64,000 bases of DNA from Eledone cirrhosa (taxonomy: Eukaryota), in contig OZ024740.1 in the NCBI GenBank assembly GCA_964016885.1, positions 35,402,001 to 35,466,000 of the forward strand, given 5' to 3'. Shown piece after piece: positions 1 through 59,290 of this stretch. The notes below the pieces were generated by a model. That model was given only the letters and a program-made list of their open reading frames with translations. It did no database searches and was not told the origin of the DNA. The position numbers and the translations under genes were made by a program. Within the stretch, counting starts at the first letter, position 1, and every line of letters begins with the position of its first letter.

Positions 1-1665
1 TTTATTTTTGTCAAGTGTAGGCCCCCGACTCCTAGAACCTCAAGAAACTTGATTTTTGTCAAGTGTAGCCCCCCGACTCCTAGAACCTCAAGAAACTTCA
101 TTTTTGTCAAGTGTAGCATCCAACTCCTAGAACCTCAAGAAACTTTATTTTTGTCAAGTGTAGGCCCCCGACTCCTAGAACCTCAAGAAACTTGATTTTT
201 GTCAAGTGTAGCCCCCCGACTCCTAGAACCTCAAGAAACTTCATTTTTGTCAAGTTAAGGCTCCAATTCGTAGAACCTCAAGAAACTTGATTTTTGTCAA
301 GTGAAGCCCACAACTCCTAGAACCTCAAGAAACTTCATTTTCGTCAAGTTAAGGCTCCAATTCCTAGAACCTCAAGAAACTTCATTTTTGTCAAGTTAAG
401 GCTCCAATTCCTAGAACCTCAAGAAACTTTATTTTTGTCAAGTGTATGCCCCCGACTCCTAGAACCTCAAGAAACTTCATTTTCGTCAAGTGTACCCCCT
501 CAACTCCTAGAACATCAATAAACTTTATTTTTGTCAAGTGAAGCCCCCCGAATCCTAGAACCCCAAGAAACTTTATTTTTGTGAAGTGATGCCTCCCGAA
601 TCCTAGAACCTCAAGAAACTCCATTTTTGGCAAGTGTAGTCGCCCCCCCCCCCCCGACTCCTAGAACCTCAAGAAGCTTCATCTTTGTCAAGTGAAGCAC
701 CCAGAATCGTAGAACCTCAAGAAACTTTATTTTTGTCAAGTGTAGCCCCCGACTCCTAGAACCTCAAGAAACTTCATTTTTGTCAAGTGAAGACCACAAC
801 TCCTAGACCCTCAAGAAACTTTATTTTTGTCAAGTGTAGTCCCCCGACTCCTAGAACCTCAAGAAACTTCATTTTTGTCAAGTGTAGCCCCCCCCCCCTA
901 CTCCTAAAACCTCAAGAAACTTCATTTTTGTCAAGTGTAGCCCCCCGAAACCTAGAACCTCAAGAAACTTCATTTTTGTCATGTGTCGGCCCCCGACTCC
1001 TAGAATCTCAAGAAACTTCATTTTTCTCAAGTGTAGCCCCCCACTCCTACAACCTCAAGAAACTTCATTTTTGTCAAGTGTAGCCCCCCCCGACTCCTAG
1101 AACCTCAAGAAACTTCATTTTTGTCAAGCGTAGCCCCCCGACTGCTAGAACCTCAAGAAACTTCATTTTTGTCAAGTGTAGCCCCCCCGACTCCTAGAAC
1201 CTCAAGAAGCTTCATCTTTGTCAAGTGTAGCCCCCCAACTCCTAGAACCTCAAGAAACTTCATTTTAGTCAAGTGAAGCACCCAGTATCCTAGAACCTCA
1301 AGAAACTTCATTTTTGTCAACTGTAGCCCCCCCCCCCCCCGACTCCTAGAACCTCAAGAAACTTCATTTTTGTCAAGTGAAGCCTCCAATTCCTAGAACC
1401 TCAAGAAAGTTAATTTTTGTCAAGTGCATCCCCCCGACTCCTAGAACCTCAAGAAACTTCATTTTTGTCAAGTGTCGCCCCCCTCACTCCTACAACCTCA
1501 AGAAACTTCATTTTTGTCAAGTGAAGTCTCCAATTCCTAGAACCTCAAGAAAGTTAATTTTTGTCAAGTGTAGCCCCCCGACTCCTAGAACCTCAAGAAA
1601 CTTCATTTTTGTCAAGTGTAGACCCCAACTCCTAGAACCTCAAACACTTCATTTTTGTCAAGTGT
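1..1665. repeat. ~48-bp tandem satellite/minisatellite (~35 copies, runs off the window's left edge)
   Basis: Unit TCCTAGAACCTCAAGAAACTTCATTTTTGTCAAGTGTAGCCCCCCGAC recurs at 30, 78, 125...; variation is mostly in the C-run. ORFs here are repeat translations. Confidence 0.95.
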
Positions 1666-1669
1666 TCAT

Positions 1670-1815
1670 TTTTGTTTTTAGTCCTGCAGGATGTCCAAAG
1701 TCACCCTCCTCACCAAGAAACCTTGATGGGCGTTGCCAGTTTAGTCGCCAACCACCCGACCATGGGACAGGTTGTACTGGGATACATGTTTCCAGTAGCA
1801 CCAACTGGTGACCTG
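1670..1815 (-). mobile_element. 5' fragment of non-autonomous RTE derivative, family A
   Basis: Near-identical to 8195-8338; abuts a (CATA)n tract. Confidence 0.8.
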
Positions 1816-1834
1816 ATATACATACATACATACA

Positions 1835-4800
1835 ATGGCGACCGTTGTGGTCAGTGTCCGATAATCGGACGTGTGTAATTACGGCTTACATGATGGCAAC
1901 ATACCATATTATGGAAAAAGTTGAGCTACATTACGCGGTAAGATTACATACAATAATTCTACATAAGTGTTTGAACTGTAAGTGTGTTGTAAAACACCTA
2001 TTTATATGAACGATACACTTATGATATATGAACGGTACATACACTTTAACATATAAATGCAAAGTTGTTATATTACATTTGTAAAGAAATATGCAAGTAA
2101 CGTTTTCGATTCAGAAACAAAAACATAAGTGTTTGAACTGTGAATATGTTGTGAATATGTTGTAGAACACCTATTTATATGAATGATACATAAACTTTAA
2201 GATATAAATACAGCGTTGTTATATTATATTACATTCATAAAGAAATATACTAAGTAACGGTTTTCTTTTTGTTTTTTTTTTGTTCTCGATTCAAACGATT
2301 CAAGAACAACGTTTAAAACACAGTTGTAGAATGAAAAACTAACTGAAAAGAAATATTACCCAATCTGTGAATAACTTTAAATTTGATTCTGTCAGAACTT
2401 TGTCGAAACTTTTAAAGATCATCGACTATTTTGAAAAATAAATCAAAATATTAGTGAATAGACGAACGCATCATGGCAAAACGTACAAGTCTCCTTCGAC
2501 CAAATCGCAACTACAACCGTTGTATACAGTGGAGCTACGAGCTTAACAAAGAATTATATGAAGCATACAAACAATCTGAACCCCAAAAGTTCGGTTTTAT
2601 GCAAAGGCTAAAACCTTTATGGAACTCCAAACACCCAGAATTAGACTTTTCTCCAAAGCATTTAAATGAACAGGCAAAACGTATCATTAGATGTAAATTG
2701 ATACATCTAACGGAATTGAGTGATACTACAAATACAGCCCTTGTAGACAACCACCCCACCTCCACTGACAGACAAAGAGAATGGCCAGCTAAATCTAACA
2801 GTGAACAGCTCACCAACAATTTTGCTGAAATCCATCCCACTTCCACTGAAGAACAGCGAGAATGGTCAGCTAACTCTAGTAGTAATTGTCACCACATCAA
2901 CAACGAGGCTGAAATTCATGACTCTACTGTACAAACAGAACACCAAAAACTTGTGGACACCTTACAAGTGATATGGGACGATATGTTTCAAGAGATACAC
3001 AGCCTTAATGTGAGTGACAGACCATACAACACCAGAATCAGTAAAGAACCCACTAAATTGGAATTGGAAGCGGTGAACGAAATAGCTGGCAATTATCTGA
3101 AGGCTATACGATCTAAAGGTGTAGAAACGACATTTGAAACGCTTAATGTTTTGTTATATGTTTCAGCTGTCACATTGCTATCATATAACAAACATCTAAA
3201 ACCACGCAATCAAGATACAAACAAAAAGCCTGAACCAGCGTGGATACGAAATTTAAAAAGCAAAATTTTGTGCCTGAGACGAAGTATCTCACACATCGCA
3301 GTCGTTATGAAATGCAACATAGAGAGCAACTTCACACGACACCAGGAAGACCTAAAAAAAAGTTAGAGACGATTTGGAGATACAAAATTTAAAACTTTAA
3401 ACTCCAAATTACACCAGTTGAAACAACAACTCACAGCTACAACAGAAAGACTAAAATATAAGTCAACAGCACATAAACGACAAGTGCTAAATAGATTGTT
3501 TGCCAGAGATCCTAAATCAGTTTATCGCAGCTTCGGTGTCAAAATCTCAATCTCTGTAAATGACACCCCTTCAAAAGAACAGGTTGAGAGGTACTGGAGA
3601 TCTGTATGGGAAACGGATGACGGATTCAACAGACAAACTAATTGGCTAAAAGAACTGGAACATGACTACTGCCAACATGTTCAGACAAAACAATATGACA
3701 TAGATGGGTCAATACTGGAAACAGCTCTACAATGTCGAATAGGAAATCACCAGGCCCAGACCTCATTACAGGATACTGGTTGAAGAATTTCACTTTCTTT
3801 CGGCAAGATCTCATACGGCTGTTTACAGAAACCATTAAAGGCACACAAGAACTGCCCAGATGGTTAGCAACTGCCACTACTCTCCTCATTCCCCAAAATA
3901 GTCAAACCACTCTTGCTAAAAATTACCGCCCAATAGCCTGCCAAAACATCATGTATAAATTATATACTGAGTGCCTTAACCTGTTCTTACAGGATCACTG
4001 TGCTACCAACAACATCATAACACCTGAGAAAGCTGGTGGAAAGAGGGAGGTGTGGGGTTGCATAGATCACCTACTATCTAATAAAATGATTCAAGAAAAA
4101 ACAACAAAGAATCCCAGAAATATGACTGCGGTGTGGCTGGACTATCAAAAAGCATTTGATAGTGTACCTCATGGGTGGATTGTTAAGGCTTTACAGTTAG
4201 CCAAAGTCCCACAAACACTGATAGCTGCTGTTGAACATCTGACCAAGAACTGGTACACCAATTTGATCCTTAGAGGTGAGAAGGAGCAAGTTAAGACTGA
4301 TAAGATACATTACCAGAAGGGCATCTTTCAGGGTGATAGCTTGTCAGTGCTACTCTTCGTTCTCTCACTAAATCCACTATCTTACCTACTCAGGAAACAA
4401 GGTGGACAAAGAAGTGGGTCCAGAAGTATCTCCCATCTTTTCTTTGTTGATGACCTGAAGTTGTATGGGCCAAATATCAATGACATCAAGAAACAATTGG
4501 ACCTCATTACACAATTTTCAACAGACATCAAAATGAAATTTGATGAGTCCAAGTGTGCATATTTGGCAGTAAAACGTGGAAGAGCTGTGCCCTCCTCTAA
4601 AAATCTAGAGATGAACAGCCTGACAATACAACCCCTACAGTCAGGTGACAACTACAGATATCTTGGACAGGATGAGAATGTCAGATATGATGGACCCATA
4701 ATTAAGGAGAGAACCAGAACTGAATACCTCAGAAGAGTAAAGAAAATATGGTCATCAGAACTGTCAGCGTACAACAAATACATTGCTCACAATACTTATG

Positions 4801-6058
4801 CTGTGCCAATTCTAACGCCAACATTTGGCCTGCTGAATTGGTCATTGCAAGAACTAAGTGAGATGGATGTTAGAACTCTCAAACTTCTCAGTGTTACTGG
4901 GAACTTTAACATCAATAGTGATGTGGATAGGCTATAATTCTCACGCAAGGAAGGTGGCCGGGGTCTAAAATCCATATTAAAATCATGTGAGACCCGGATA
5001 GTAACACTGAAGTAACATCTTCAACAGAGGAAAAATGTAGGCAACCATCTTGGCCAGGTTTATGAGCATGAACAAAAAAAAATCATTAGAATAGCCACTG
5101 ATCTGGAGTAGAGATATGGAATAAAGCCTGATATAAATCTCTCACCCAGAGAAATCGGAAGATCCTATTCAATGTTCAAACAAGATGAAAAAATTGATCA
5201 ATTTACATAAAAAGTTGTGCATGGATACTTGAGGCGTAAAACACAGACCATAGAGGGGATAAACCACTCAAACAGCTTGGCATGGAGTTCCGACAAGTTT
5301 ATGACATCACACCTTGAGGGATATCTCTATGCAATACAGGAACAAGAACTCCCTACCAAATATCTGCTGCACAAAAGCGGAGGGCCATCAGCTGACAATA
5401 AATGTAGGCTATGTAAAACAAAGATCGAGGATGTAAGGCGTATTGTTGCCAGCTGCGAAAGAATGTTATCTCGCTACTACCTCCCATGAGACACGATGTG
5501 ATAGCTAGAACCATCTGGAACGCACTTCGGAAAACAAAATTAACAACAAACGAGGAAGAATATATTGAGACAGATGGCACTAAGGAATACTGGTGGAACC
5601 TGAAAATAAAAAAAAATGCCACCAAATTAAAGCACAACCGGCCTGATATTGTTGTTTGGGACCACACATTGTAAACGTGTTCTGTTGTGGAGATCAGCTG
5701 CCCACTTGATGTAAACGTTGTCAGAAAAATACAGGAGAAGGAGGACATCTACGGACCATTGATGAGGAGTTTACAAATCCAGTATCCAAGATACACCTTT
5801 AGCTTCATACCCATCATTATTGGATCTACGGGTTATATATCAACCCGCTTGGACCAAAGTATAACTGAACTTGGATTTGCGGACAAAGAGCGCAGCTCAC
5901 TAATTCATAGTCTACAAATGGCTGCGATAGCTGGCACCTTCAAAATTTGCAAAACATTCTTGCGATTCAAGGGATGACAATTTCTTTTCTTTTACAACCT
6001 TGCCACCAGGAAGGTGGCCGGTCAAAAAAATATACTCGAAATTAAGAGAAAGAGATAA
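1835..6058 (+). mobile_element. Near full-length, decayed R4/Dong-clade non-LTR retrotransposon (RT + C-terminal restriction-like endonuclease), family 1
   Basis: ORF pieces 2473-5977 show RT motifs YRPIAC, DYQKAFDSVPH, GIFQGDSLS and FFVDD, then a CRLC...C knuckle, RHD, RPDIVV and EISCP (PD-D/ExK RLE). Frameshifts and stops present; (CATA)n on both sides. Confidence 0.9.
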
Positions 6059-6202
6059 CATACATACACACATACATACATACATACATACATACATACA
6101 TACATACATACATACATACATACATACATACATACATACATACATACACACACACATACATACATACATACATAAATACATACATACACACATACCTACA
6201 TA

Positions 6203-7720
6203 CTACAGGGAATACTACACCTGATTAAGAAAGATCTGGTCATCGGAACTCTCTGCGCAAAACAAAACAGTGGCTCACAATGTGTTTGCTGTGCCTGTCC
6301 TAACACCAACTTTTGGAATACTCAATTGGACGATAGACGAAATCCGAATAGTTGATGTTGGAACTCGAAAAATACTGAACAACACCGGAAACTCCCACAT
6401 CAACAGTGACATAGACCGCCTTTACTTGAAACGTAAGCAGGGAGGCAGACGCCTAACATCAGTCCAGACAACATTTGAATGTCGCATCATATCTCTCCGA
6501 CAACATCTACGAACCTCGAAGCGTAGGAGCCCGTTTCTCGACCAAGTCTATCTGCATGAAACAGATAAGATCATGTGAGTTGGGAAGGAACTCCTTGAGA
6601 GATATTCCCTGTGTGATAATCAAAAACTCACACCCAGGGATGTCGCTCAGCAGTATCGCAGTGAATCCATGGATGAAAAACTGCATGCCTATCAGCAAAA
6701 AATCATGCACAGATATGTTGCCAGGAAGCTCCAGAGTGAGAGTTATATAGATAAGGAAAGTAGTCTATCTTGGACCAACAACCGCTATATTGGCTCCCAC
6801 TTTGAAGGATACGCTTTTGCAATCCAGGAACAGGAGATTAGCACGAAATACCTGATTCACAAAAGAGATAGGGATGCAGGAAAAACACCTAGATGTGATA
6901 ACAAGTGCAGACTCTGCAGAACTAACATCGAGGATATCACCCATGCCATCAGCAGCTGTCCAAAGATGTCATCGCGGTACTATCTACCTATGAGGCATGA
7001 TGTAGTGGCCAACACACTGTACAATGCAGTTCGTAAAAAAGATAGCCCCGACAATAAACACATTAAAAGCTACAACAATGTGGAAGACATCCATGTACAT
7101 AATATGAAAGAGTACTGGTTGAATGTTCCAGTAAAAACCCCAATAAAATGCAGGCATAACAGACCAGATATAATGATATGGGACAGGGAGAAGAAAACAT
7201 GCACAGTAGTGGAAATTAGCTGCCAAGCAGATGCCAATATAGTATCAAAGATTAGTGAAAAGGAGAATATTTATGCAGAACTGATGAGAAATCTGCAGAT
7301 ACTCCACCCTGATTACACCTTCAGATTTATGGCTGTGATTATTGGGGCACTGGGATATGTTAGTAACTGCCTCAATACAAATCTTGAGAAGCTAGGCTTC
7401 ACAGGAACAGAAAGAACACAACTAGTTAGGAAATTACAAGTACAATCCGTTAATGGAACAGTAATAATATGTAAAACATTCCAAAAATGTTGTATCTAAT
7501 AACTGCATATACACATGTACAGATACAAAGCATATACACATGCACACATACAATTCAAAACATCCACATCCACACATACAATAACATCCATATCTACACA
7601 TGCATACATACATATCTACTTAGTTGATGTGTAAATTGCAATGAGAGAGTCTTGTGTCTATGTTAGAAACCGACTATCTCTCTATTGGTAAAACTTTGTG
7701 AAATTATAAAACCAGAAGAA
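6203..7720 (+). mobile_element. 5'-truncated R4/Dong LINE, family 2
   Basis: ORFs 6270-6578 and 6669-7499 contain CRLC..EDITHAISSC, MRHD, RPDIMIW and EISC; the 3' end ...CCAGAAGAA joins CATAC. Confidence 0.9.
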
Positions 7721-7735
7721 CATACACACATACAT

Positions 7736-8338
7736 GGTGGCTGCCAACTCGTTTTCGAGTAAGGCCACTACTTTATATCCATGTAGGAGAACCCCTACTG
7801 ATACGCTGAACGAGTGTGACTTTTTAGTCCAGCCAGCGACTTGAAAACTCTGGTACAAACACTACACTTGTGACAATTACTGACACATAGTGCTGGGCCC
7901 ATGGTACCATGTGATGACAAGTGCAGAGAGATCTCCAGATATAAAGCAAAGCCTGTGCCATGAAGCTTTTATAGTGAGCAAAGGCACTGCACAAAACCAG
8001 TCCCACTCTCTTAACCAAGATGATATTTATCAAAAAGAAGAACAAGTCAACATCACTGGATACCATCAGGGTTGCAGGTGTTATATCAGAGTTTTCCTTC
8101 TCCTAGAGTTCTGCCTTGACAAAGGCTAAGGGGTCATCTCTCCCGGTGATTTTGGATGGCCATTGACTCTTAAGAGCTCCTTTGCCCTTTGACAGGTTTT
8201 GTTTTTAGTCCTGCAGGATGTCCAAAGTCACCCTCCTCACCAAGAAACCTTGGTGGGGTTGCCAGTTTAGTCGCCAACGACCCGACCATGGGACAGGTTG
8301 TACTGAGATACATGTTACCAGTAGCACCAACTGGTGAC
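7736..8338 (-). mobile_element. Short internally deleted RTE derivative, family A (~600 bp)
   Basis: RTE-type 5' UTR (GGAGAAGGAAAACTCTGA) fused to the ORF C-terminus (CSVCTRVFKSLAGLKSH), a 3' hairpin ACTCG-AAAA-CGAGT and an (ATGT)n tail; further copies at 13801-14335 and 14535-14938. Confidence 0.8.
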
Positions 8339-8420
8339 ATACATACATACATACATACATACATACATACATACATACATACATACATACATACATACAT
8401 ACATACATACATACATACAA

Positions 8421-8940
8421 GATGGCTGCAAACTCTGCTAAGAGTTTTGCATTCGCTTGTCAGATTATAGAGTTTGGTGCACCTTTAGGCTATGGCCAGC
8501 CACACGAACCTGTAACAGATCTTGAACAAGCAATGCCTGAGCTTTGAAGGTTTTTTTAAGTGGGGAAAGGCCTTCCACTCGACCAATCCTACTCTCTGAG
8601 CATCGAAAACACTACCCGAAAAGGAGAACTGGTCAATATCATCGGATGCTTCCGAAGCCGCAGGTTTTGTCAGAGTTTCTCTCTCTTAAAAAGGTGTAGT
8701 GACAACAACTAGGGACCTTTCACTCCCAGGTGAAAGAAAAATGCTATTTGGATGGCCGCTGACTCTGCTGAGTTCCTCCGCCCTTTGCCGGGTCTTGTAT
8801 TTCATCCCACAGGGTGTCCAAATATCACCCTCCTCACCAAGCAAGCTTAGTGGGGTTGCCGGTTTAGTCGCCCACGACCCGACCATGAGACAGGTTGCAC
8901 TGGGTTACATGTTACCAGTAGCACTCGAGAGCGACCTGAC
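8421..8940 (-). mobile_element. Short RTE-related non-autonomous element, family B (~520 bp)
   Basis: 5' ~150 nt is homologous to family A; the body differs; 3' hairpin plus (ATGT)n tail; second copy at 10898-11417. Confidence 0.75.
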
Positions 8941-9019
8941 ATAGATACATACATAGATACATACATATATACATACATACATATATACATGCATAAATGC
9001 ATACATACATACTTATATA

Positions 9020-10860
9020 TATCGACAGTAATAACGTCATTACAGATGAACAAGCAGCTGGAAAGAAAGGTGTTTGGGTGTCCGTGCAGAACAACTAATT
9101 AACAGAATCACGATGTCAGAGGTGCGGCAACATAGGAGGAATATGGTTACAGCCTGGCGGGACTACAGGAAAGCATTCTATTCTGTTCCCACTCTTGGAT
9201 GATAGAGGCCCTCCGACTTGCTAAAGTCGCAGACACTATTATCAGAGCCATAGAGAACCTTCTTGGGCTATTATCGTAAAGTTAAAACCAGAGGAGGACC
9301 CTATTTTCACTGATAAAATAGAATATCACAGGGGTATATTTCAAGGAGATAATCTCTGTGTGCTACTATTTATTCTGTCATTAAATCCTTTGTCCTTTCT
9401 GCTCAAGAAATGTGAAGGATACATAATTGGCTCCCAAGAGGACAGAAATACAAACCTAGCTCACAACTACTTTGTGGATGACCTGAAACTCTATGCCAAG
9501 AACATGGATGACCTGGTTACAACATTCTCAAAGGATATAGGAATGGACTTTAGCAAGGGTAAATGTTCATATATGACCGTAAAGCGGGGAAAAACTACAA
9601 GCCAACCTAGCAACATTTTTATCAATGATCTAACTGTTTCACCGATATCTGACGAGGAGTGCTATAGATACCTGGGGATAGATGAGAATATATCATATGA
9701 TGGTATCTGTAACAAGGAACGCGTAACCAGGGAATATTACACCCGGTTAAGAAAAATATGGTCATCTGAAATCTCTGCGCACAATAAAACAGTGGCTCAC
9801 AATATGTTTGCTGTGCCTCTCTAACACCAACGTTTGGAATACTCGATTGGATGATAGACGAAATCCGAACAATTGATTTTAAAACCCGAAAAGTACTAAA
9901 CAACACCGGAAAATTCCACATCAACAGTGACATAGACCGCCTTTACTTGAAATATAAGCAGGGAGGTAAAGGCCTAACATCAGTCCAGACAGCATTTTAG
10001 TGTTACATCATATCCTTCCGACAACATCTATGAGCCACTAAGCGTAGAAGCCTATCTATTGAGTAAGTCTGTCTACATGAGACAGGTAAGTTTATGAGCG
10101 TTGGGAAGGAACTCCTTGAAAAATATTCCCTGCATGATAATAAAAAAATTCACACACAGGGAATACCGCAGTGAATCCATGGATGAACAACTGCATGCTT
10201 ATCAGCAAAAACTCATGCATGGATATGTTGCCAGGAGGCTCAAGTGTGAGGGCAATATAGATAAGCAAAGTAGTTTATTTTGGACCAACAACCGCTATAT
10301 TGGCTCCCACTTTGAAGGACACACTTTTGCAATCCAAGAACAGGAAATCAACACAAAATACCTGATTCACAAAAGAGATAGGGATGTAGGCAAAAACACC
10401 TAGATTTGACAACAAATGCAGACTCTGCAGAATTAACATCGAAGATGTCACTCATGTTGTAAGCAGCTGTGTCATCACGGTACTATCTACCAATAAACCC
10501 CGACAATAAACACTAAAAGTTACAGCAATGTGTAAGGCATATACCTTCAGATTTACACGTATGATTATTGGGGCACTGGGATATGCTATTAACTGCCTCA
10601 GTACAAATCTTGACTAGTTAGGAAATTACAAGTACAATCCATTAATGGAACTGTAAAAATTTGTAAAACATTCCAAAATTTCTGCATGTAATAACTGCAG
10701 ATACAAAACATGCACATGCACAAGTATAACTCAAAACATACAGATCCACACATACAATAACATCCATACCCGCACACACATACATGCAGACATGCAGATA
10801 TATTTACCTAGTGGATATCTACTACTGGTAAAAATTTATAAAATTATGAAACCAGAAGAA
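9020..10860 (+). mobile_element. Decayed R4/Dong LINE, family 2, with internal deletions
   Basis: RT motifs GIFQGD and YFVDDLKLY; matches 6203-7720 and has the same 3' junction CCAGAAGAA|CATAC. Confidence 0.85.
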
Positions 10861-10897
10861 CATACATACATATATACATATATATACATAAATACAT

Positions 10898-11417
10898 GAT
10901 GGCTGCAAATTTTAGTAAGAGTATTACAATCGCTTGTCGAGTTACAGAAAATGGGGCACTTTTAGGCTACGGCCAGCCACACGAACCTGTAACATATCCC
11001 GAACAAGCAATGCCTGTGCTTTGAAGGTTTTTTAAGTGGGGGAAAGGCCTTGCACTCGATCAATCCCACTCTCTGAGCATCGAAAACACTACCCGAAAAG
11101 GAGAACTGGTAAATATCATCGGATGCTTCCGAAACCAACCACAGGTTTTTTTTCTGAGTTTTCCTCTCTTAGAAAAGTGTTGTGACACCAACTGGAGACC
11201 TTTCACTCCCAGGTGAAAAAAAATACTATATGGATGGCCGTTGGCTCTGCTGAGCTCCTCCGCCTTTTGCCTGGTCTTATATTTCATCCAGCTGGGTGTC
11301 CAAATATCACCCTCCTCACCAAGCAAGTTTGCTGGGGTTGCCGGTTTAGTCGCTGGCAACCCGACCATGAGACAGGTTGTACTGGCTTACATGTTACCAG
11401 GAGCACCCGAGAGAGAC
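10898..11417 (-). mobile_element. RTE-related non-autonomous element, family B, copy 2
   Basis: Aligns end to end with 8421-8940. Confidence 0.75.
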
Positions 11418-11442
11418 ATGATATAAATACATACATAAATAC

Positions 11443-12525
11443 GTGATGCCTGCATCTCGATTTCAAGAATTGCCATTCATTTACTCATACATGGTGGCAT
11501 GAATATGACTCTTTAGCTCTGCCAAAGACTTACATTCCTTTCTGCATATGCTGCAGCGATGAAGATTACTTTCACTTCGGTTCCCTGTTTTGTTTTGGTA
11601 AGCCTTCAAATGACGTAGGAGCACACCGGCCGAGACACATTGTTTTCCACACATCCGACAGGAAGATGCTAAAGTGACCGTAATCGACAACATTTTGTAC
11701 ATGGCTTCTATGATGACTTCTACAACCAGCTTTATTAAGACAAATTCAGCCACACACATTGGACACAAGTCATTTTGAACATCTAAAAATGCAGGTGAAG
11801 TGATATCGTGCAGACTGCTACGCGGGACCATCTTTAATTGTTCATGTTCCACACGGGATTTTTCAAATTCCTGTTTTTCATTAAACAATGTTTTCCTTCA
11901 AGATGATCAATCTAAGGCAATATCTTCCCAGTTATCTTTGATTTTTTGTTTTACTTTATCAAAGCCTTTTTGATGCAGTCTTTATATCTGAGTTTTGGGT
12001 TACGCCTTGGCCGTCTGTATTTGACTAACTCCCCGTACAGAAAGTGCTTAGGAATATGATGATCTGACATTCTTACAAAATGGCCGCTCCAGTGAAATCT
12101 ATATTGAATTATGAGATTCAATACTTTAAAAATGACTTTGTTCCAGCACCTCAGCATCATTCATGTGTAATTGCCAATGGATACCGAGTATTCGGCGAAG
12201 ACTTTGTTGAGGAAGATGTTCCAGCTTTTTTATATTTCGCTGGTATATGACCCAAGTTTCATTCACATACAACAATAAAGACAATACACATGTTTTGTAC
12301 ACATTTACTTTGTATGAACAGAAAACCCACGTCGACACAAGAGAAACCCATCTACTTTGCCAATCACTTGCTTTTTTCAGTTGCACCATGGGTGTTTGTC
12401 ATGTTAACTGTGCTTCCCAAATATACAGATTTATCCACAACCTTCAGTGTTTTACTCTACAGATAAATGTGAAGTCCTTGCCCAGAGCAGGTCGATACAA
12501 AACAACTGTCTTGGTCAGACTGATT
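11443..12525 (-). mobile_element. 3' remnant of an autonomous RTE LINE
   Basis: Minus-strand ORFs VYKTCVLSLLLY..ETW, WSGHFVRM..IPK..LYGEL and CSICRKECKSLAELKSH; the 3' end resembles family A and has an (ATGT) tail. Confidence 0.85.
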
Positions 12526-12529
12526 GATA

Positions 12530-12717
12530 GGTCACTCTCGAGAGCTACTGGTAACATGTAACTCAATACAACATGTTACATGGTTGGGTTGTCGGCGACT
12601 AAGCTGGTAACCCTACCAAGCTTGCTTAATGAGGAGAGTGACTTTTGGACACTCAGCGAGCGGGATGAAAAACAAAACCTGTCGAAGAGCGGAGGAATTC
12701 AGTAGAGTTGACCATCC
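12530..12717 (+). mobile_element. 5' fragment of the RTE-type UTR (third variant)
   Basis: Homologous to the 5' ends of families A and B, in the opposite orientation to upstream copies. Confidence 0.7.
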
Positions 12718-12751
12718 AGTAGTGTGTAGATATTTATATGTTGATATGTAT

Positions 12752-13751
12752 GTTTCTCTTTTTCTTAATTTCGAGTACATTTTTGACCGGCCACCTTCCT
12801 GGTAGCAAGGTTGTAAAAGAAAAGAAATTGTCATCTCTTGAATCGCATGAATGTTTTGCAAATGTTGAAGGTACTAGCTATCGCAGCCATTTGTAGTCTA
12901 TGAATTAGGGAGCTGCGTTCTTTGTCTACAAATCCAAGTTTAGTTACACTTTGGTCCAAGCGGGTTGGTATATAACCTGTAGCTCCAATAATGATGGGTA
13001 TGAAGCTGAAGGTGTATCTTGGATACTGAATCATCTGCAAACTCCTCGTCAATGGTCCGTAGATGTCCTCCTTCTCTTGTATTTGTTTTTTACAACGTTT
13101 ACATCAAGTTGGCAGCTGATATCTACAACAGAACACGTTTTCAATGTGTGGTCCCAAACAACAATATTAGGCCTGCTGTGCTTTAATTTGGTGGCAGTTT
13201 TTATTTTCAAGTTCCACCAGTATTCCTTAGTGCCATCTATCTCAACATATTCCTCCTCCTTTGTTTTTAAGTTTGTTTTCCTAAGTGCGTTCCAGATGGT
13301 TCTAGCTATCACATCGTGTCTCATAGGGAGGTAGTAGCGAGACGACATTCTTTCGCAGTTGGCAACAATGTGGCTTACATATTCGATCTTTGTTTTACAT
13401 AGTCTACATTTATTGTCAACTGATGGCCCTCCTCTTTTGTGTAGCAGATATTTGATAGGGATTTCTTGTTCCTGTATTGCATAGAGATATCCTTCAAGGT
13501 GGGATGTCAACTTGTCGGAACTCCCTGCCAGGCTTTTTGAATGATTTATCTCCTCTATGGTCGGTGTTTTTCGTCTCAGGTACCCATGCACAACTTTCTT
13601 TGTAATTTGGTCCATTTTAAAAATCTTGTTCGAACATTGAATAGGATCTTCCAATTTCCCTGGGAGAGAGATTTATATCAGGCCTTATTCCATATCTCTC
13701 CTCCAGATTAGTGGCTATCCAAATGATATTATTTCCTTCATGTTCATAAAC
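12752..13751 (-). mobile_element. R4/Dong family 1, 3' ~1 kb
   Basis: Reverse complement of ~5065-6058 (RLE domain and 3' UTR). Confidence 0.9.
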
Positions 13752-13800
13752 ATGTATGTATGTATGTATGTATGTATGTATGTATGTATGTATGTATGTA

Positions 13801-14335
13801 TGTCTCATGGTCGGGTCGTTGGCGACTAAACTGACCACCCCACTAAGGTTTCTTGGTGAGGAGGGTGACTTTGGACATCCTGCAGGACTAAAAACAAAAC
13901 CTGTCAAAGGGCAAAGGAGCTCTTAAGAGTCAATGGCCATCCAAAATCACTGGGAGAGATGACCCCTTAGCCTTTGTCAAGGCAGAATTCTAGGAGAAGG
14001 AAAACTCTGATATAATACCTGCAACCCTGATGGTATCCAATGATGTTGACTTGTTCTTCTTTTTAGTAAATATCATCTTGGTTAAGAGAGTGGGACTGGC
14101 TTTGTGCAGTGCCTTTGCTCACTATAAAAGCTTCATGGCACAGGCATTGCTTTGTATCTGGAGATCTCTCTGTACTTGTCATCACATGGTACCATGGTCC
14201 CAGCACTATGTGTCAATAATTGTCACAAGTGTAGTGTTTGTACCAGAGTTTTCAAGTCGCTGGCTGGACTAAAAAGTCACTCATTCAGCAGGATATAAAG
14301 TAGTGGCCGTACTCGAAAACGAGTTGGCAGCCACC
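13801..14335 (+). mobile_element. RTE derivative, family A copy
   Basis: Reverse complement of 7736-8295; between (ATGT)n tracts. Confidence 0.8.
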
Positions 14336-14534
14336 ATGTATGTATGTATGTATGTATGTATGTATGTATGTATGTATGTATGTATGTATGTATGTATGTA
14401 TGTATGTATGTATGTATGTATGTGTGCATGTGTGTACGCGTGTATGTGTGTACGTGTGTATGTATGTATGTATGTATGTATGTATGTATGTATGTATGTA
14501 TGTATGTATGTATGTATGTATGTATGTATGTATG

Positions 14535-14938
14535 GATGACCCCTTAGCCTTTGTCAAGGCAGAATTCTAGGAGAAGGAAAACTCTGACATAACACCTGCA
14601 ACTCTGATGGTATCCAATGATGTTGACTTGTTCTTCTTTTTGGTAAATATCATCTTGGTTAAGAGAGTGGGACTGGCTTTGTGCAGTGCCTTTGCTCACT
14701 ATAAAAACTTCACGGCACAGGCATTGCTTTATATCTGGAGATCTCTCTGCACTTGTCGTCACATGATTCCATGGGCCCAGCACTATGTGTCAATAATTGT
14801 CACAAGTGTAGTGTTTGTACCAGAGTTTTCAAGTCGCTGGCTGGACTAAAATGTCACTCGTTCAGCGCATCGGTAGGAGTTCTCCTACATGGATATAAAG
14901 TAGTGGCCGTACTCGAAAACGAGTTGGCAGCCACCACC
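14535..14938 (+). mobile_element. RTE derivative, family A copy, 5'-truncated
   Basis: Matches 13958-14335; between (ATGT)n tracts. Confidence 0.8.
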
Positions 14939-14957
14939 ATGTATGTATGTATGTATG

Positions 14958-15288
14958 TTTTCTCTTTCTCTTAATTTCGAGTACATTTTTGATTGGCCGC
15001 CCTCCTGGTAGCAAGGTTAGTATAGTCATACTTTGGTCCAAGAGGGTTGGTATATAACTTGTAGCTCCAATAATAATGGGTATGAAGCTGAAAGTGTATC
15101 TTGGATACTGGATCTGCAAACTCCTCACCAATGGTCCGTAGATGTCCCCCTTCTGTATTTTTTTTACAACGTTGACATCAAGTAGGCAGCTGAAAGCACG
15201 TTTTCAATGTGTGGTACCAATCAACAATATCAGGCCGGCTCTTCTTTAATTTGGTGACAGTTTTTATTTTCAGGTTCCACCAGTACTT
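14958..15288 (-). mobile_element. R4/Dong family 1, 3' fragment with an internal deletion
   Basis: Same 3' UTR as 5995-6058; LQIQYPRYTFSFIPIIIG. Confidence 0.85.
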
Positions 15289-15364
15289 CATTGTAAAATA
15301 ATCATTCCAGATATTTTAGCACCTAATTTACATAGAATTTGAAGTTGCTGAAAACCGTCAAAAT

Positions 15365-22171: not shown

Positions 22172-23700
22172 TATTGAAGTTTGCTTGAAGCATTGTGGAA
22201 TAATAAGGTAAATTTCTTTAAGTCGTTTGGAAGCCTCGACAATGCAGATGGGTAAATCTCCGGGTAACAAGATCCGGTGGTGGAGAGAGAGAGATGTAAG
22301 TGGGTGTACGTTGAGATGGGTGGCGTGTAGAAGAATGTAGGAAAGAACGTAAAGGATAAAAGTAAAAATAATAACACGAGATAGAGTTACCTTGGGAGAG
22401 ATTTAATTGTCCCTATATATTTCGGATTCACATCCATTAACTGGGTTTTTTCCGGGGGAGGGGGAGGGAGGTTGTCTGTCGGAAAGGTGCGAAACGTGTC
22501 CTCCGTTGTTCGTTGTTCTGAGGTATTCAGCAGAGCGCGCGTGCGCGTGAAATGGGGTCGGTCAAGCAGAGGTTAGCGGCGGAAATAGTTCTTTCAATTG
22601 TGGGAGTGGGGTGGCGCTAGCTGTCAGACCATAGTATTCTCTGCTTGTTTGGTGAATGTTACTGTGTGTGTGTGCGTGTTTTGTCTCGCTTGAGTGTGTG
22701 TGTGTGTGTGCGTGTGTTGTTGCCTTGTTCCTCTGTATTGGCAATGTAGTATGTTCGTATGGTGGAATGCTACTGTGTGTGTGTGCGTGTGTTGCTGTCT
22801 CGCTTGTGTGTGTGTGCGTGTGTTGCTGCATCGTTTGCTAACTTAAACCAACCACCTCATTTCGCTTCTCTCGGATCGGTTTTTTAATTGTGGCCCTATG
22901 CGTTTGATCCAAAGTGCTTCCTTGATACGTAATGTGCCGACGTTTCTTTCTGTCGCTAGAATTGTGACAATGGGCCTTCCGTCTTTGTTTCCGCATTTGG
23001 CTATGTGTTTCCGGAAAGACGAGGCCCTGGTGTTAGTGTGCTCCTTGATCCGGATGTGCAGCGGCCGGATTGTGCTACCTATATAGTATTGGTTGCACTT
23101 GTTACATTCTATCTTATACACGACGTATATGCGTAGGCAACAGTTCGCATGGCGCATGGGGCAGTCTCTGAGGGAGCACGCGTCAGTTGATTGCCCGGGT
23201 TTCCTGGAGAGGCATTTTCGCAGGGAGGGGCCCGAGTGAGCCAGGTGGATGTCGAGGGGCCCTCCCTCCGTATAGCCTTGCGGATAGCGTTGGTGGTATT
23301 CTCGCCCAGGTGTGGCATTTTAAGGAAGCACTTGCCTTGCGTGCCTCTCTGTCTCTTGTGTCTGGTGTCTCCTACTCTGTCTGTGAGCGAGGTAGGGTAC
23401 CCGTTCGTCTCCAGCACCTCGAGGAATCGCTTGGTATGAGTGACACCACTCGCGGGATCGCTGCATCTGTTTTTGATTCGCGCGATCTCGTTCGTGATGT
23501 ATCCTCTTTTGGCACTATTAGGGAGGGCGGACTTGTAGTGGACGAACAGGTCCCTGCAGGCTGCCTTTCGGTAGAAGTTGCAGTGGATCCCTCCCTGTTC
23601 CGTGATGTTGATTCGGAAGTCGAGGAGGGGGCAAGTGACCCGTCGTCGCTGGGGTGTTCAACACTGAAGTCAATGTTCTCATCCGTGTTTTTGAACAATA
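22170..23700 (-). mobile_element. 5'-truncated Penelope-like element (GIY-YIG endonuclease, RT thumb)
   Basis: VVYKIECNKCNQYYIGST.RPL..RIKEH; LETNGYP; decayed hammerhead-like motif at 22411-22445. Confidence 0.8.
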
Positions 23701-27199: not shown

Positions 27200-28760
27200 T
27201 AAAACATTTTTTCCCTCCTACAGTTATTTTGTCACTCTCTCTCAAAATATTACCCCTCTCTCACTAAAACATTATACCTTTCTCACCCTCTCTACAAACC
27301 GCTACGTAAATCACTCTTTCTCATTAGACCAACATTCTCCCTCTCTCACTAAACCACCAAACTCTCTCCCTCTCTCTATATCCGGCTACATACCGCACTC
27401 TCTTACTCTCAAAATTTTCCCTCTCTCATTAAACCACAAAAATTCTCTTTCTCTCTATATGCCACTACATACCTCATTCTCTATCATTCTCCCAATTCCC
27501 GCTCTCTCAATAAACCACCAAGCTCTCTGCCTCTCTCTATATCCCACTACATTTCCCCCTCTCACACTAGATGACCAAATCCCCCCCTTTCTCTATATAC
27601 CAGTACATACCTCATTCCCTATCACTCTCATAATTCCCACTCTCTCATTAACCCAAGCTCTCTCTCCCTCAATATTTCTCACTAAATGCTTTACTCTCGA
27701 TCGCTTTCACAATTTCACATCTTTCACTATGCGTCCAAACTCTCTGCCCTCTCTATATCCCACTACACACCTCACTCTCTTTTACTCCCTTAATTCCCCT
27801 TCTCTCACTAAACAAACAAATTCTTTCCCGCTCTCTATATCCCACTATATACCTCACTCTCTCTCACAACACCCCTCTCTAATTAGACCACCAAATTCTC
27901 CCCCTCTCTCTATCCCACTACAAGCCTCACTCTCTCTCACAATTGCCCCTCTCTAATTAGACCACCAGATTTTCTCTCCCTCACTCTATACGATTACATA
28001 CCTAACTCTCTCCCAATTCCCCTTCACTCACTATACCACTACATTATCTCCCCCTCTCTATATACCATTACATACCTCCTCTCTATATTCCACTACATAC
28101 CTCACTCTCTCTCACTCCCTTAATTTACTCTCTCATTAAACCAACACACTCTCTCCCCACTCTCTATATTCAACTACATACTCACTCTCTCTCACTCTCA
28201 CAATACCTCCTCTCTCACCAGGCCAATAAGCTCTCTCCCTCTCTCTATAACTCACTACATACCATACTCTCTCACAATTCCCCCTCTCTATATTCAACTA
28301 CATACCTCACTCTCTTTCACTCTCTTAGTTCCCCCTCTCTTTCACCAAACCAACAAATTCTTTCCCGCTCTCTATCCCACTACATACCACATCACTCTCA
28401 CAATGCCCCCTCACTAGACCACAAATCAATATCCCCCTCTCTATATCCTACTACATACATCACTCTCTCTCACAATCACCCCTCTCTCACTAGACCACCA
28501 AATTCTCTCTCCTTCTCTATATACCACTATATACCTCACTCTCTCTCACTCTCTTAATTTCCCCTCTCACACTAGACCACCAAATTCTCTCCCCCTCTCT
28601 ATATTCCCCTACATACCTCACTCTCTCTCATTCTCACAATATCCCCTCTCTCAAGAGGCTAATAAACTTTCTCCCCCACTACATACTTCACACTCTCTCA
28701 CAATTCTCCCTCTCTCACTAGACAACCAAATTCTCTCTCTATATATATATCCCACTACAA
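27200..28760. repeat. Degenerate CT-rich tandem repeat
   Basis: Recurring CCACCAAATTCTC...CTCTATATCCCACTACATACCTCACTCTC. Confidence 0.8.
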
Positions 28761-45448: not shown

Positions 45449-47217
45449 GATGTAGATTATAGCACAATAATAATAACAATACCATTATATAAAAGGTGTA
45501 GATTATAGCACAATAATAACAACAATACCATTATATAAAAGGTGTAGATTATAGCACAATAATAATAACAATACCATTATATAAAAGGTGTAGATTATAG
45601 CACAATAATAATAACAATACCATTATATAAAAGGTGTAGATTATAGCACAATAATAACAACAATACCATTATATAAAAGATGTAGATTATAACACAATAA
45701 TAATAACAATACCATTATATAAAAGATGTAGATTATAACACAATAATAATAACAATACCATTATATAAAAGGTGTAGATTATAGCACAATAATAATAACA
45801 ATACCATTATATAAAAGATGTAGATTATAACACAATAATAATAACAATACCATTATATAAAAGATGTAGATTATAGCACAATAATAATAACAATACCATT
45901 ATATAAAAGGTGTAGATTATAGCACAATAATAATAACAATACCATTATATAAAAGATGTAGATTATAACACAATAATAACAACAATACCATTATATAAAA
46001 GGTGTAGATTATAGCACAATAATAACAACAATACCATTATATAAAAGGTGTAGATTATAGCACAATAATAATAACAATACCATTATATAAAAGATGTAGA
46101 TTATAGCACAATAATAATAACAATACCATTATATAAAAGATGTAGATTATAGCACAATAATAATAACAATACCATTATATAAAAGATGTAGATTATAGCA
46201 CAATAATAACAACAATACCATTATATAAAAGATGTAGATTATAGCACAATAATAATAACAATACCATTATATAAAAGATGTAGATTATAGCACAATAATA
46301 ATAACAATACCATTATATAAAAGATGTAGATTATAGCACAATAATAATAACAATACCATTATATAAAAGATGTAGATTATAGCACAATAATAATAACAAT
46401 ACCATTATATAAAAGATGTAGATTATAGTACAATAATAATAACAATACCATTATATAAAAGGTGTAGATTATAGCACAATAATAATAACAATACCATTAT
46501 ATAAAAGATGTAGATTATAGCACAATAATAATAACAATACCATTATATAAAAGGTGTAGATTATAGCACAATAATAATAACAATACCATTATATAAAAGA
46601 TGTAGATTATAGCACAATAATAACAACAATACCATTATATAAAAGGTGTAGATTATAACACAATAATAATAACAATACCATTATATAAAAGATGTAGATT
46701 ATAACACAATAATAATAACAATACCATTATATAAAAGATGTAGATTATAACACAATAATAATAACAATACCATTATATAAAAGATGTAGATTATAACACA
46801 ATAATAATAACAATACCATTATATAAAAGATGTAGATTATAGCACAATAATAATAACAATACCATTATATAAAAGGTGTAGATTATAGCACAATAATAAC
46901 AACAATACCATTATATAAAAGATGTAGATTATAACACAATAATAATAACAATACCATTATATAAAAGATGTAGATTATAGCACAATAATAACAACAATAC
47001 CATTATATAAAAGATGTAGATTATAGCACAATAATAACAACAATACCATTATATAAAAGGTGTAGATTATAGTACAATAATAATAACAATACCATTATAT
47101 AAAAGGTGTAGATTATAGCACAATAATAATAACAATACCATTATATAAAAGGTGTAGATTATAGCACAATAATAACAACAATACCATTATATAAAAGGTG
47201 CAGATTATAGCACAATA
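45449..47217. repeat. 46-bp tandem array (~38 copies)
   Basis: Unit TGTAGATTATARCACAATAATAAYAACAATACCATTATATAAAAGR, with no spacers. Confidence 0.97.
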
Positions 47218-47587
47218 AGCAAGACATATTTTAAAGAACTTCTAAATGTGGTTAGGAACCGTAAAAGTAATCGATTAAGAAATCTATCACAAGAACATTT
47301 TGCTTTCATCTGAGCTATAGACGGATGATTGGTGAAAATCACCCGAAAAATGTTCGTAATTAAGTTACTTGTTCAATACCTGTCAGTTATATAAACAATA
47401 ATAGTTCAATACCTCAGTTATACAATCAATTATATAATCAATAACAGTTATACAATCAATAACAGTTCAATACCTCAATTATACACTCAATATATTCAAT
47501 ATCTCAATTATACGATCAATAACATTTCTATAATTAGCTTAACCTGACCAAACTGCACTAACTAGATAAATTTCCCTGTGATGAAAC

Positions 47588-59200: not shown

Positions 59201-59290
59201 CCAGGCCACCTAAATTTATACTGCCTATTCTAAGTAAGGCCATGTTGGGTGAGGAATGAAGTAAGTGAGAAAGGATCACCTACCCTGATC
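56228..59290 (-). mobile_element. Decayed L1/Tx1-clade LINE ORF2 (APE endonuclease + RT + CCHC)
   Basis: SINLGGL..DVVAISETR..VYAP..GDWN, SDH, GPGYWKLN, FRPITLLNTDFKILAK, RQGCPLS, AYADD and C..C...H...C; frameshifted. Confidence 0.92.

What the first reader, a model, noticed from the sequence alone, without database searches (positions are those of the whole stretch)
1670..15290. Self-feeding retroelement nest built on the (CATA)n microsatellite with strict strand polarity
Seen: about 13 elements from two Dong/R4 families and three RTE-related types are stacked, nearly all separated by (CATA)n/(TATG)n. Every Dong 3' end reads directly into CATAC on its own sense strand (6058, 7720, 10860, and 12752 and 14958 on minus). 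Every RTE-type 3' end runs the other way into (ATGT)n. This gives tail-to-tail pairs at 7720/7736, 10860/10898 and 14938/14958. Known: R4-clade RLE elements can be sequence-specific (Dong is described at TAA repeats), and RTE elements carry short-repeat tails. Inference: RTE tails create the target that (CATA)n-specific Dong elements and further RTE copies use, a feed-forward loop between unrelated retroelements. I do not know of this target or loop being described.
Basis: partly seen in the sequence, partly recalled or inferred. Interest (0 to 1): 0.75.

Follow-up and report, generated by a model that had tools for sequence, protein, structure and literature searches.

The report
Retrotransposons sharing a CATA landing site
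Two families of jumping genes in this animal genome sit inside CATA repeats and face one way, likely because their own protein cuts that repeat, while an unrelated family sits in the same repeats facing the other way, so the stack is likely a shared landing site rather than one family building targets for the other.

Summary
The 13-piece nest and its strand polarity are real. Two Dong/R4-like LINE families have (CATA)n on both sides: 3' 108 of 113 copies, 5' 71 of 86, background 2.7%. Relatives in other records show the same target; papers searched give Dong only (TAA)n. The RTE-derived elements face the other way (genome-wide 13,318 ends into ATGT, 12,734 into ATAT, 156 into ATAC), but they too have microsatellite on both sides, and their clear 10-14 nt duplications start right at the element end. 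Their 'tail' is therefore mostly the target, not a product. Dong lies beside RTE 3' ends (28 of 113) about as often as beside RTE 5' sides (15 of 84). Enrichment over free arrays holds per array but vanishes per target site. A 99% paralog 1 Mb away lacks one RTE copy and shows an uninterrupted array there. Verdict: co-targeting with target regeneration, not a tail-fed loop; a new variant of known microsatellite targeting. This scan noted the same system twice before elsewhere in this genome.

The parts
1670..1815 (-). 5' 145 nt of RTE-derived element X; the rest is cut off by the 47/48-bp satellite (full length in the paralog)
1816..1834 (+). (CATA)n array, head-to-head between X and Dong A
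1835..6057 (+). Dong-like family A, full length, single ORF broken by frameshifts and stops; same 5' end in three other copies
2473..2760 (+). N-terminal three-helix domain, predicted Myb/SANT-like (candidate DNA reader)
   Evidence: Z 4-5.3, weak
3699..4937 (+). Reverse transcriptase region of Dong A
   Evidence: RVT_1 E 2e-24; best solved matches R2 proteins
6002..6018 (+). 3' UTR hairpin (6-bp stem, 5-nt loop) with compensatory changes among relatives
6058..6205 (+). (CATA)n array between Dong A 3' end and Dong B 5' truncation
6206..7719 (+). Dong-like family B, 5'-truncated; CCHC knuckle and RPD..E endonuclease motif in ORF 6579-7499
7720..7735 (+). short CATA/CACA array, tail-to-tail Dong B / X
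7736..8341 (-). RTE-derived non-coding element X, full length (about 606 nt)
8338..8420 (+). (CATA)20 array between X 5' end and Y 3' end
8421..8941 (-). RTE-derived non-coding element Y, full length
8942..9012 (+). imperfect (CATA)n array, head-to-head Y / Dong B
9029..10859 (+). older Dong B copy (83%), 5'-truncated, internally deleted
10860..10897 (+). imperfect (CATA)n array, tail-to-tail Dong B / Y2
10898..11420 (-). second Y-type element (87% to Y)
11421..11445 (+). short degenerate CATA array
11446..12530 (-). T: 3' coding fragment and 3' end of an old RTE-type LINE (C-terminal C2H2 fingers)
12531..12718 (+). RTE-type 5' UTR piece, inverted against T; nest polarity flips here
12719..12751 (-). 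degenerate CATA/TA array
12752..13754 (-). Dong A-type copy (89%), 5'-truncated
13755..13803 (-). (CATA)12 array on the minus strand
13804..14335 (+). X copy, 5'-truncated; absent from the 99% paralog, which has one continuous array here
14336..14534 (-). (CATA)n array on the minus strand
14535..14938 (+). X copy, 5'-truncated
14939..14958 (-). (CATA)5 array, tail-to-tail X / Dong A
14959..15290 (-). short, internally deleted Dong A-type copy; no array at its 5' junction

Best explanation
The nest is a stack of two Dong/R4-like LINE families and several RTE-derived elements that all lie inside the same CATA/TATG microsatellite in opposite orientations, likely because both groups independently insert into arrays that were already there. 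Shown: Dong copies have CATA on both sides, sense strand CATA, 3' junction at ^ACATAC. Shown: X and Y have (TA/TG)n repeat on both sides, 3' junction at ^AT, sense strand TG-bearing, with 10-14 nt duplications where these can be read. Inferred: the Dong protein (Myb-like reader plus restriction-like endonuclease) nicks the TATG strand and primes there. Inferred: the RTE protein nicks the opposite strand and the RNA's short AUGU end pairs with the primer, fully on ATGT, with one wobble on ATAT and poorly on ATAC, which would give the observed order. Opposite polarity then yields both tail-to-tail and head-to-head pairs.
For: Dong flanks: 3' 108 of 113, 5' 71 of 86, none in TATG polarity by the same rule, background 2.7%. 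Genome-wide family B end 6,497 matches, 5,065 followed by ACATAC; family A end plus ACATAC 2,640. Full-length relatives L323 and L324 from other records have CATA at both ends in the same polarity, L328 at its visible 3' end; the L323 family is not in this genome. X end plus ATGT 13,318, ATAT 12,734, ATAC 156. 5' microsatellite: X 26 of 27, Y 23 of 28, position-ordered X 31 of 40 against 9% background. G content of 5' and 3' flanks correlates for X (rho 0.80, p 5e-7, n 27). TATG count is no higher at the 3' than the 5' side. Non-periodic duplications starting at offset 0-1: 10 against null mean 2.25, max 6; pure ATGT tail before a duplication 3 against null mean 1.8, max 4. Dong beside RTE 3' end 28 of 113, beside RTE 5' side 15 of 84, p 0.30; paired 17 against 13, p 0.58. 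Paralog empty site. Dong directly beside Dong 24 of 113.
Against: 135 of 169 X/Y copies were uninformative for duplications, and 24 had their best match at offset above 1 (null mean 11.2, max 17), which I read as repeats within one complex array but cannot prove. For Y the flank correlation is weak (rho 0.34, p 0.08) and a few copies (L243, L245) have three ATGT units with no matching 5' array. The older family Z is lopsided: Dong at its 3' side 10 of 113, at its 5' side 1 of 84 (p 0.026; 2 of 84 after a motif recheck). For the old coding family T only about 12 of 28 5' junctions look microsatellite by eye, at poor resolution. 15 of 86 Dong 5' junctions lack CATA, and 4 of 84 left neighbours are RTE fragments in the unexpected orientation. 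The paralog's empty site could be a deletion. The per-site baseline has a wide interval. No enzyme was assayed.
Confidence: 0.72

Rival explanations
1. One reading: RTE elements lay down new (ATGT)n tails, and these are the main target of the Dong families and of later RTE copies.
For: Dong 3' arrays end at an RTE 3' end in 28 of 113 cases against 9 of 109 free arrays (p 0.001). Family Z asymmetry. A few Y copies with short unmatched ATGT runs. RTE elements are reported to make new SSRs between their duplications in moths (PMC2887409, passages).
Against: Both-sided arrays, ATAT ends in about half of X, duplications starting at the element end, 5'/3' symmetry for X, 90 of 114 arrays with no element beside them, enrichment lost per target site. 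CATA targeting also occurs in relatives from other records.
Confidence: 0.12
2. Mixed history: ancient RTE lineages (T, Z) seeded many TATG arrays as true tails long ago; the arrays then grew by slippage, and young X, Y and Dong now simply co-target them.
For: T 3' ends carry short ATGT/ATAT runs followed by unique DNA; Z asymmetry; per-site baseline is higher for RTE 3' sides than 5' sides (29% against 18%, intervals overlap).
Against: Most sampled arrays (90 of 114) have no recognisable element beside them, though my library holds only seven copies; about 12 of 28 T copies have microsatellite at the 5' side too.
Confidence: 0.3
3. No active targeting: insertions are random and survive, or are assembled, mainly inside microsatellites.
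For: The genome is rich in simple repeats (1,358 TA runs and 182 CATA/TATG runs in 800 kb).
Against: Fixed phase (87 of 113 Dong ends begin ACATAC), strand bias of 85 to 1 for X, young copies (about 95-98% identical to the window copies), and the same target in distant relatives.
Confidence: 0.03

Closest known systems
Dong, DongAg, DongBg and ostracod Dong (R4 clade, RLE-type LINEs)
   Same: Single ORF with RT, CCHC knuckle and restriction-like endonuclease, no N-terminal zinc finger, predicted Myb-like N-terminus, insertion inside a microsatellite (PMC7998251 passages; PMC3812793 passages).
   Different: Target is the four-base (CATA)n, not (TAA)n, which PMC7998251 gives for most insects, molluscs and cnidarians. 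In a quick tree families A and B fall in a 22-row clade (SH-aLRT 100) apart from the insect-containing group; no named Dong sequence was in the tree.
Waldo elements (WaldoAg1, WaldoAg2, WaldoFs1)
   Same: Target ACAY microsatellites, which include ACAT (PMC3812793 passage).
   Different: APE-type elements (R1 clade by the cited title); the elements here have a C-terminal RLE. The same target in an unrelated enzyme type.
Bipartite non-autonomous RTE derivatives (Bov-A, RTESINE1/2, WALLSI3, MAR4_MD)
   Same: Short non-coding elements sharing a 5' part with each other and a 3' end motif with a coding RTE-type LINE (PMC5786205 passages).
   Different: [quoted passage not shown]
RTE Tn-TA insertion signature and tail-guided priming model (Nishiyama and Ohshima 2018)
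   Same: 3' repeat of the RNA matches the first bases of the duplication; pairing proposed to help priming (PMC6007223 abstract and Discussion).
   Different: There the overlap is one or two bases and the upstream signal is a T stretch; here the whole site is a microsatellite.
RTE-generated microsatellite families in Lepidoptera (Tay et al. 2010)
   Same: RTE 3' ends abut SSRs.
   Different: There the SSR lies between the two duplications and is new; here the readable duplications start at the element end.

Membership tests
R4/Dong clade | Single ORF with reverse transcriptase | tested here: met
   RVT_1 E 2e-24; the window copy aligns over residues 1-1147 of an intact 1,149-aa relative in three frame pieces
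R4/Dong clade | C-terminal CCHC knuckle and PD-(D/E) restriction-like endonuclease motif | tested here: met
   Motifs present in family B and conserved in 12 relatives
R4/Dong clade | No N-terminal zinc finger (unlike R2; feature from PMC7998251) | tested here: met
   No Pfam family on the N-terminal ORF; no CCHH pattern in the first 350 aa of 10 of 10 relatives
R4/Dong clade | Diverged N-terminal SANT/Myb-like domain | tested here: inconclusive
   Three helices, pLDDT about 90 in the core; top rows mostly Myb/SANT folds (TRF1 Z 5.3, rmsd 3.2, 65 aligned; Zeste Z 5.3, rmsd 2.5, 64 aligned) but Z is low; Foldseek gave nothing at E 0.001
R4/Dong clade | RT phylogeny groups with named R4, Dong, Rex6 | not testable with these tools
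   No named reference sequence was available; quick C-terminal tree without named references
Dong lineage in the strict sense | (TAA)n target | tested here: not met
   Target is (CATA)n; works like Dong, not filed as TAA-type Dong
R4/Dong clade | HDV-like ribozyme at the 5' end (PMC3774820) | not tested
   5' ends were located but not modelled
RTE clade (T and its relatives) | Single ORF with APE endonuclease and RT | tested here: inconclusive
   An RT fragment from a T-family copy (L200) matches three proteins at 56-60%; the best is one 1,157-aa ORF with EEP, RT and C2H2 domains. The window holds only the 3' fragment; the RTE label for its motifs is recalled
RTE clade (T and its relatives) | RT phylogeny with named RTE/BovB | not tested
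   No named references at hand
Bipartite non-autonomous RTE (X, Y, Z) | 5' and 3' parts derived from the UTRs of one autonomous RTE | tested here: inconclusive
   X, Y and Z share 5' segments at 71-86% and a GCAGCCAYC-type 3' end also seen in T; the autonomous partner of X was not found or searched for; likeness of the 5' part to RTE UTRs is recalled
SSR-generating RTE (Tay et al.) | New SSR lies between the two target duplications | tested here: not met
   10 readable cases start at offset 0-1; pure tail before a duplication at chance level; 135 of 169 uninformative

The most novel reading that the evidence does not exclude
An RTE lineage here has become a true microsatellite-targeting element, steered by pairing of a target-derived RNA end, and shares a strand-split niche with a widespread, undescribed R4 branch that reads four-base repeats (CATA, likely CTTA in a sub-branch). 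Together they multiply their common target by splitting and duplicating it, a cross-clade feedback that builds nests genome-wide.
Probability: 0.3. Interest if true: 0.7.

Novelty: new variant of a known kind. Interest (0 to 1): 0.45.

Why it matters
It adds a four-base target to a clade reported mainly at (TAA)n, with a possible CATA-to-CTTA switch inside one branch: a natural pair for finding what sets RLE specificity, which bears on site-specific gene insertion tools. It also shows RTE-type elements, usually counted as non-specific, landing 78-96% inside microsatellites with strong strand bias, which makes the tail-pairing model of RTE priming directly testable. Dong-R4 and RTE are the LINEs discussed as active in octopus (PMC13282606, PMC9115989 passages); if their new copies land in microsatellites, short-read insertion callers would likely undercount them (my inference).

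Tried and rejected
RTE tails as the source of the target: rejected for X, doubtful for Y, open for old T and Z. Local segmental duplication as the origin of the nest: rejected; the nest is duplicated as a whole. A regular Dong target duplication: only 4 of 38 informative copies mirror the deviating word (null mean 1.1, p 0.02), two clearly (L003, L011), so mostly none or too short to see. Protein search with the T C-terminus found nothing at E 1e-10. Naming the Bombyx relative P0084 as Dong: its cluster carries no such name. Foldseek on the N-terminal model: no match at E 0.001. The careful tree did not finish; only the quick tree is used. Simple twin priming for the inversion at 12530: considered, does not fit well (upstream array is in CATA polarity and the pieces are far apart in the element). 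Rows dropped: 25 of 138 distinct Dong ends (loci chosen through RTE queries, the paralog, under 83% identity); 3 of 30 X and 2 of 30 Y loci as duplicates; 17 of the first 57 listed X matches (clustered or already held). One of the 9 baseline RTE 5' neighbours is probably a spurious match to a repeat inside Z. Literature: ten searches found no (CATA)n-specific R4/Dong element and no both-sided microsatellite targeting by RTE; Xiong and Eickbush 1993 is not held, Kojima and Fujiwara 2004 was not read, and Repbase and Dfam could not be searched, so the target may be recorded there. No supplements were opened; those of PMC4640811 and PMC13282606 may bear on novelty. PMC3124438, PMC7878876 and PMC3636483 (passages) added nothing decisive.
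Full report
Observation. The window opens with a 47/48-bp satellite (4-1665) that runs on for at least 10 kb upstream. From 1670 to 15290 lie 13 element pieces, mapped by self-comparison and a library of single natural copies: Dong-like family A three times (one full length, 1835-6057), family B twice, RTE-derived X four times, Y twice, a coding 3' piece T and an inverted 5' UTR piece. Outside the nest the window has only one run of three CATA units. The genome is a 3.0-Gb animal assembly; the closest named protein is from Argonauta hians at 64%, so the host is probably an octopod (inference).

What the Dong-like elements are. One ORF with RT, best solved matches R2 proteins, CCHC and RPD..E motifs, no N-terminal CCHH in 10 of 10 relatives, and a three-helix N-terminus whose top structural neighbours are mostly Myb/SANT domains at low Z. 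This is the R4/Dong layout described in PMC7998251 (passages). Families A and B are only about 67-70% alike in short stretches. Clade membership by named references could not be tested.

Dong target. Of 113 distinct copies (42 A, 71 B; 25 of 138 ends dropped as described), 108 have at least two CATA in the first 30 nt downstream and 87 begin ACATAC; of 86 visible 5' junctions, 71 have at least two CATA in the last 30 nt; none met the same rule in TATG polarity. Background is 2.7%. Sixty of the loci were the best matches by identity, 30 were position-ordered. Genome-wide, 5,065 of 6,497 exact family B ends continue ACATAC and 2,640 family A ends do (no denominator). Duplications are mostly not visible: 4 of 38 informative copies, two clear.

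Relatives. A metagenome scan gave 11 loci. L323 and L324 are flanked by CATA at both ends in the same polarity, L328 at its 3' end; L331 ends in CATA further out and L329 has only a short match; L322 and L330 begin with (CTTA)n and L321 has it upstream, with no 3' array seen; L325-L327 show no array. A, B, the CATA loci L323, L324, L328 and the CTTA loci fall in one 22-row clade (SH-aLRT 100, quick tree of 50 rows); L329 and L331 lie outside it. The L323 family gave only one 75-nt match in this genome. A 3' UTR hairpin is kept with changes on both sides in 5 of 6 pairs across 7 sequences, three of them family A copies; I picked the stem by eye, so the controls lean in its favour.

RTE-type elements. 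X, Y and Z share 5' segments and a 3' end motif with T; a T-family RT fragment matches a single-ORF endonuclease-RT-C2H2 protein. Genome-wide the X end is followed by ATGT 13,318 times, ATAT 12,734 times and ATAC 156 times: strong polarity, but no fixed tail. The 5' side is microsatellite in 26 of 27 X, 23 of 28 Y and 31 of 40 position-ordered X with ATGT ends, against 9% background. Flank composition is matched for X (rho 0.80) and weakly for Y (rho 0.34). By the criterion of Tay et al. (new SSR lies between the duplications; passages): of 169 X/Y copies 135 are unreadable, 10 show a non-periodic match starting at the element end (eight of 10-14 nt, two of 22 nt; null mean 2.25, max 6), 24 show a later match (null mean 11.2, max 17), only 3 of them after a pure ATGT run (null mean 1.8, max 4). 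Against this reading: a few Y copies with short unmatched ATGT runs and the unresolved old family T (about 12 of 28 by eye).

Do Dongs prefer RTE tails? The far side of a Dong 3' array is an RTE-type 3' end in 28 of 113 (31 with a motif rule); the far side of a Dong 5' array is an RTE-type 5' side in 15 of 84 (16 after recheck): p 0.30 and 0.18. For X 17 of 113 against 13 of 84; for Z 10 of 113 against 1 or 2 of 84. In 80 evenly spaced 10-kb stretches, 114 arrays hold the Dong site; 10 have an RTE 3' end, 9 an RTE 5' side, 90 no annotated neighbour. Per array both sides are enriched around Dong (p 0.001 and 0.046); weighted by target sites the expectation is 29% (7-47%) and 18% (4-27%), which covers the observed 25% and 18%. 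Dong follows Dong directly in 24 of 113 (5 of 114 per array; 9%, 1-24%, per site). Shared preference for long, pure arrays explains the pattern without a tail step.

Paralog. Window 1670 to at least 29729 matches C1:34,378,954-34,406,416 at 97-99%. The paralog lacks X at 13804-14343 and has one continuous array there, between a Dong 5' end and an X 5' end, so that array is no element's tail. It may be a pre-insertion state or a deletion. The paralog also keeps the first X whole.

Mechanism. Shown: targets, phase, polarity, both-sided arrays. Inferred: Dong nicks the TATG strand through its own protein; RTE primes on the CATA or TA strand helped by an AUGU RNA end (full pairing on ATGT, one wobble on ATAT, two on ATAC), in line with the model of PMC6007223 (abstract and Discussion); each insertion leaves target on both sides, so stacks grow. 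Confidence 0.72.

Known and new. Microsatellite targeting is known: Dong at TAA, Waldo at ACAY (PMC3812793 passages), Togen at TG (PMC4640811 passages). Bipartite RTE derivatives are known (PMC5786205 passages). Dong-R4 and RTE are known in octopus without a stated target in the passages read. Ten searches found no CATA-specific R4 element and no both-sided RTE targeting; Bov-B is said to be rarely flanked by its own repeat (PMC13295347 Discussion). Repbase, Dfam and the 2004 survey were out of reach. Two earlier notes of this scan reach the same reading on other parts of this genome; I had stated my reading before opening them, and they are not independent support. Verdict: new variant of a known kind, interest 0.45.

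Noticed in passing
window 4-1665 and C1:35,392,001-35,402,000 (L175): 47/48-bp satellite array, over 11 kb long; a second array of the same unit borders the paralog 1 Mb upstream, so the satellite may mark the duplication breakpoint.
   Followed up: partly
window 1670-29729 versus C1:34,378,954-34,406,416: Segmental duplication or retained haplotype of at least 28 kb at 97-99% identity, offset about 1.025 Mb.
   Followed up: partly
window 6002-6018; L323, L324, L328 3' UTRs: Conserved 3' UTR hairpin with compensatory changes, about 40-70 nt before the 3' end; a likely RNA signal for the RT.
   Followed up: partly
L321:401-477, L322:1-59, L330:6-75: Relatives in the same clade with (CTTA)n at the 5' side; 3' arrays not seen. 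Possible target switch.
   Followed up: partly
window 12530; also L307, L318, L136, L108: RTE 5' pieces inverted against a truncated 3' piece; in the window this flips the polarity of the whole nest.
   Followed up: partly
5' ends of full-length X, Y and Z: The elements begin with a TATGT-like word, so the 5' end also matches the target and may aid second-strand joining.
   Followed up: no
window 22846-23319 (-): GIY-YIG domain fragment (Pfam E 1e-5), probably a Penelope-like element.
   Followed up: no
window 56532-59279 (-): A further LINE with endonuclease (PF03372) and RT pieces, without DNA similarity to the nest.
   Followed up: no
window 45449-47218 and 27330-28630: A 46-bp tandem array (38 copies, 97% matches) and a complex CT-rich minisatellite.
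   Followed up: no
L199:2137-2604 (-): An ORF fragment of another retroelement type near a T-family copy, not classified.
   Followed up: no
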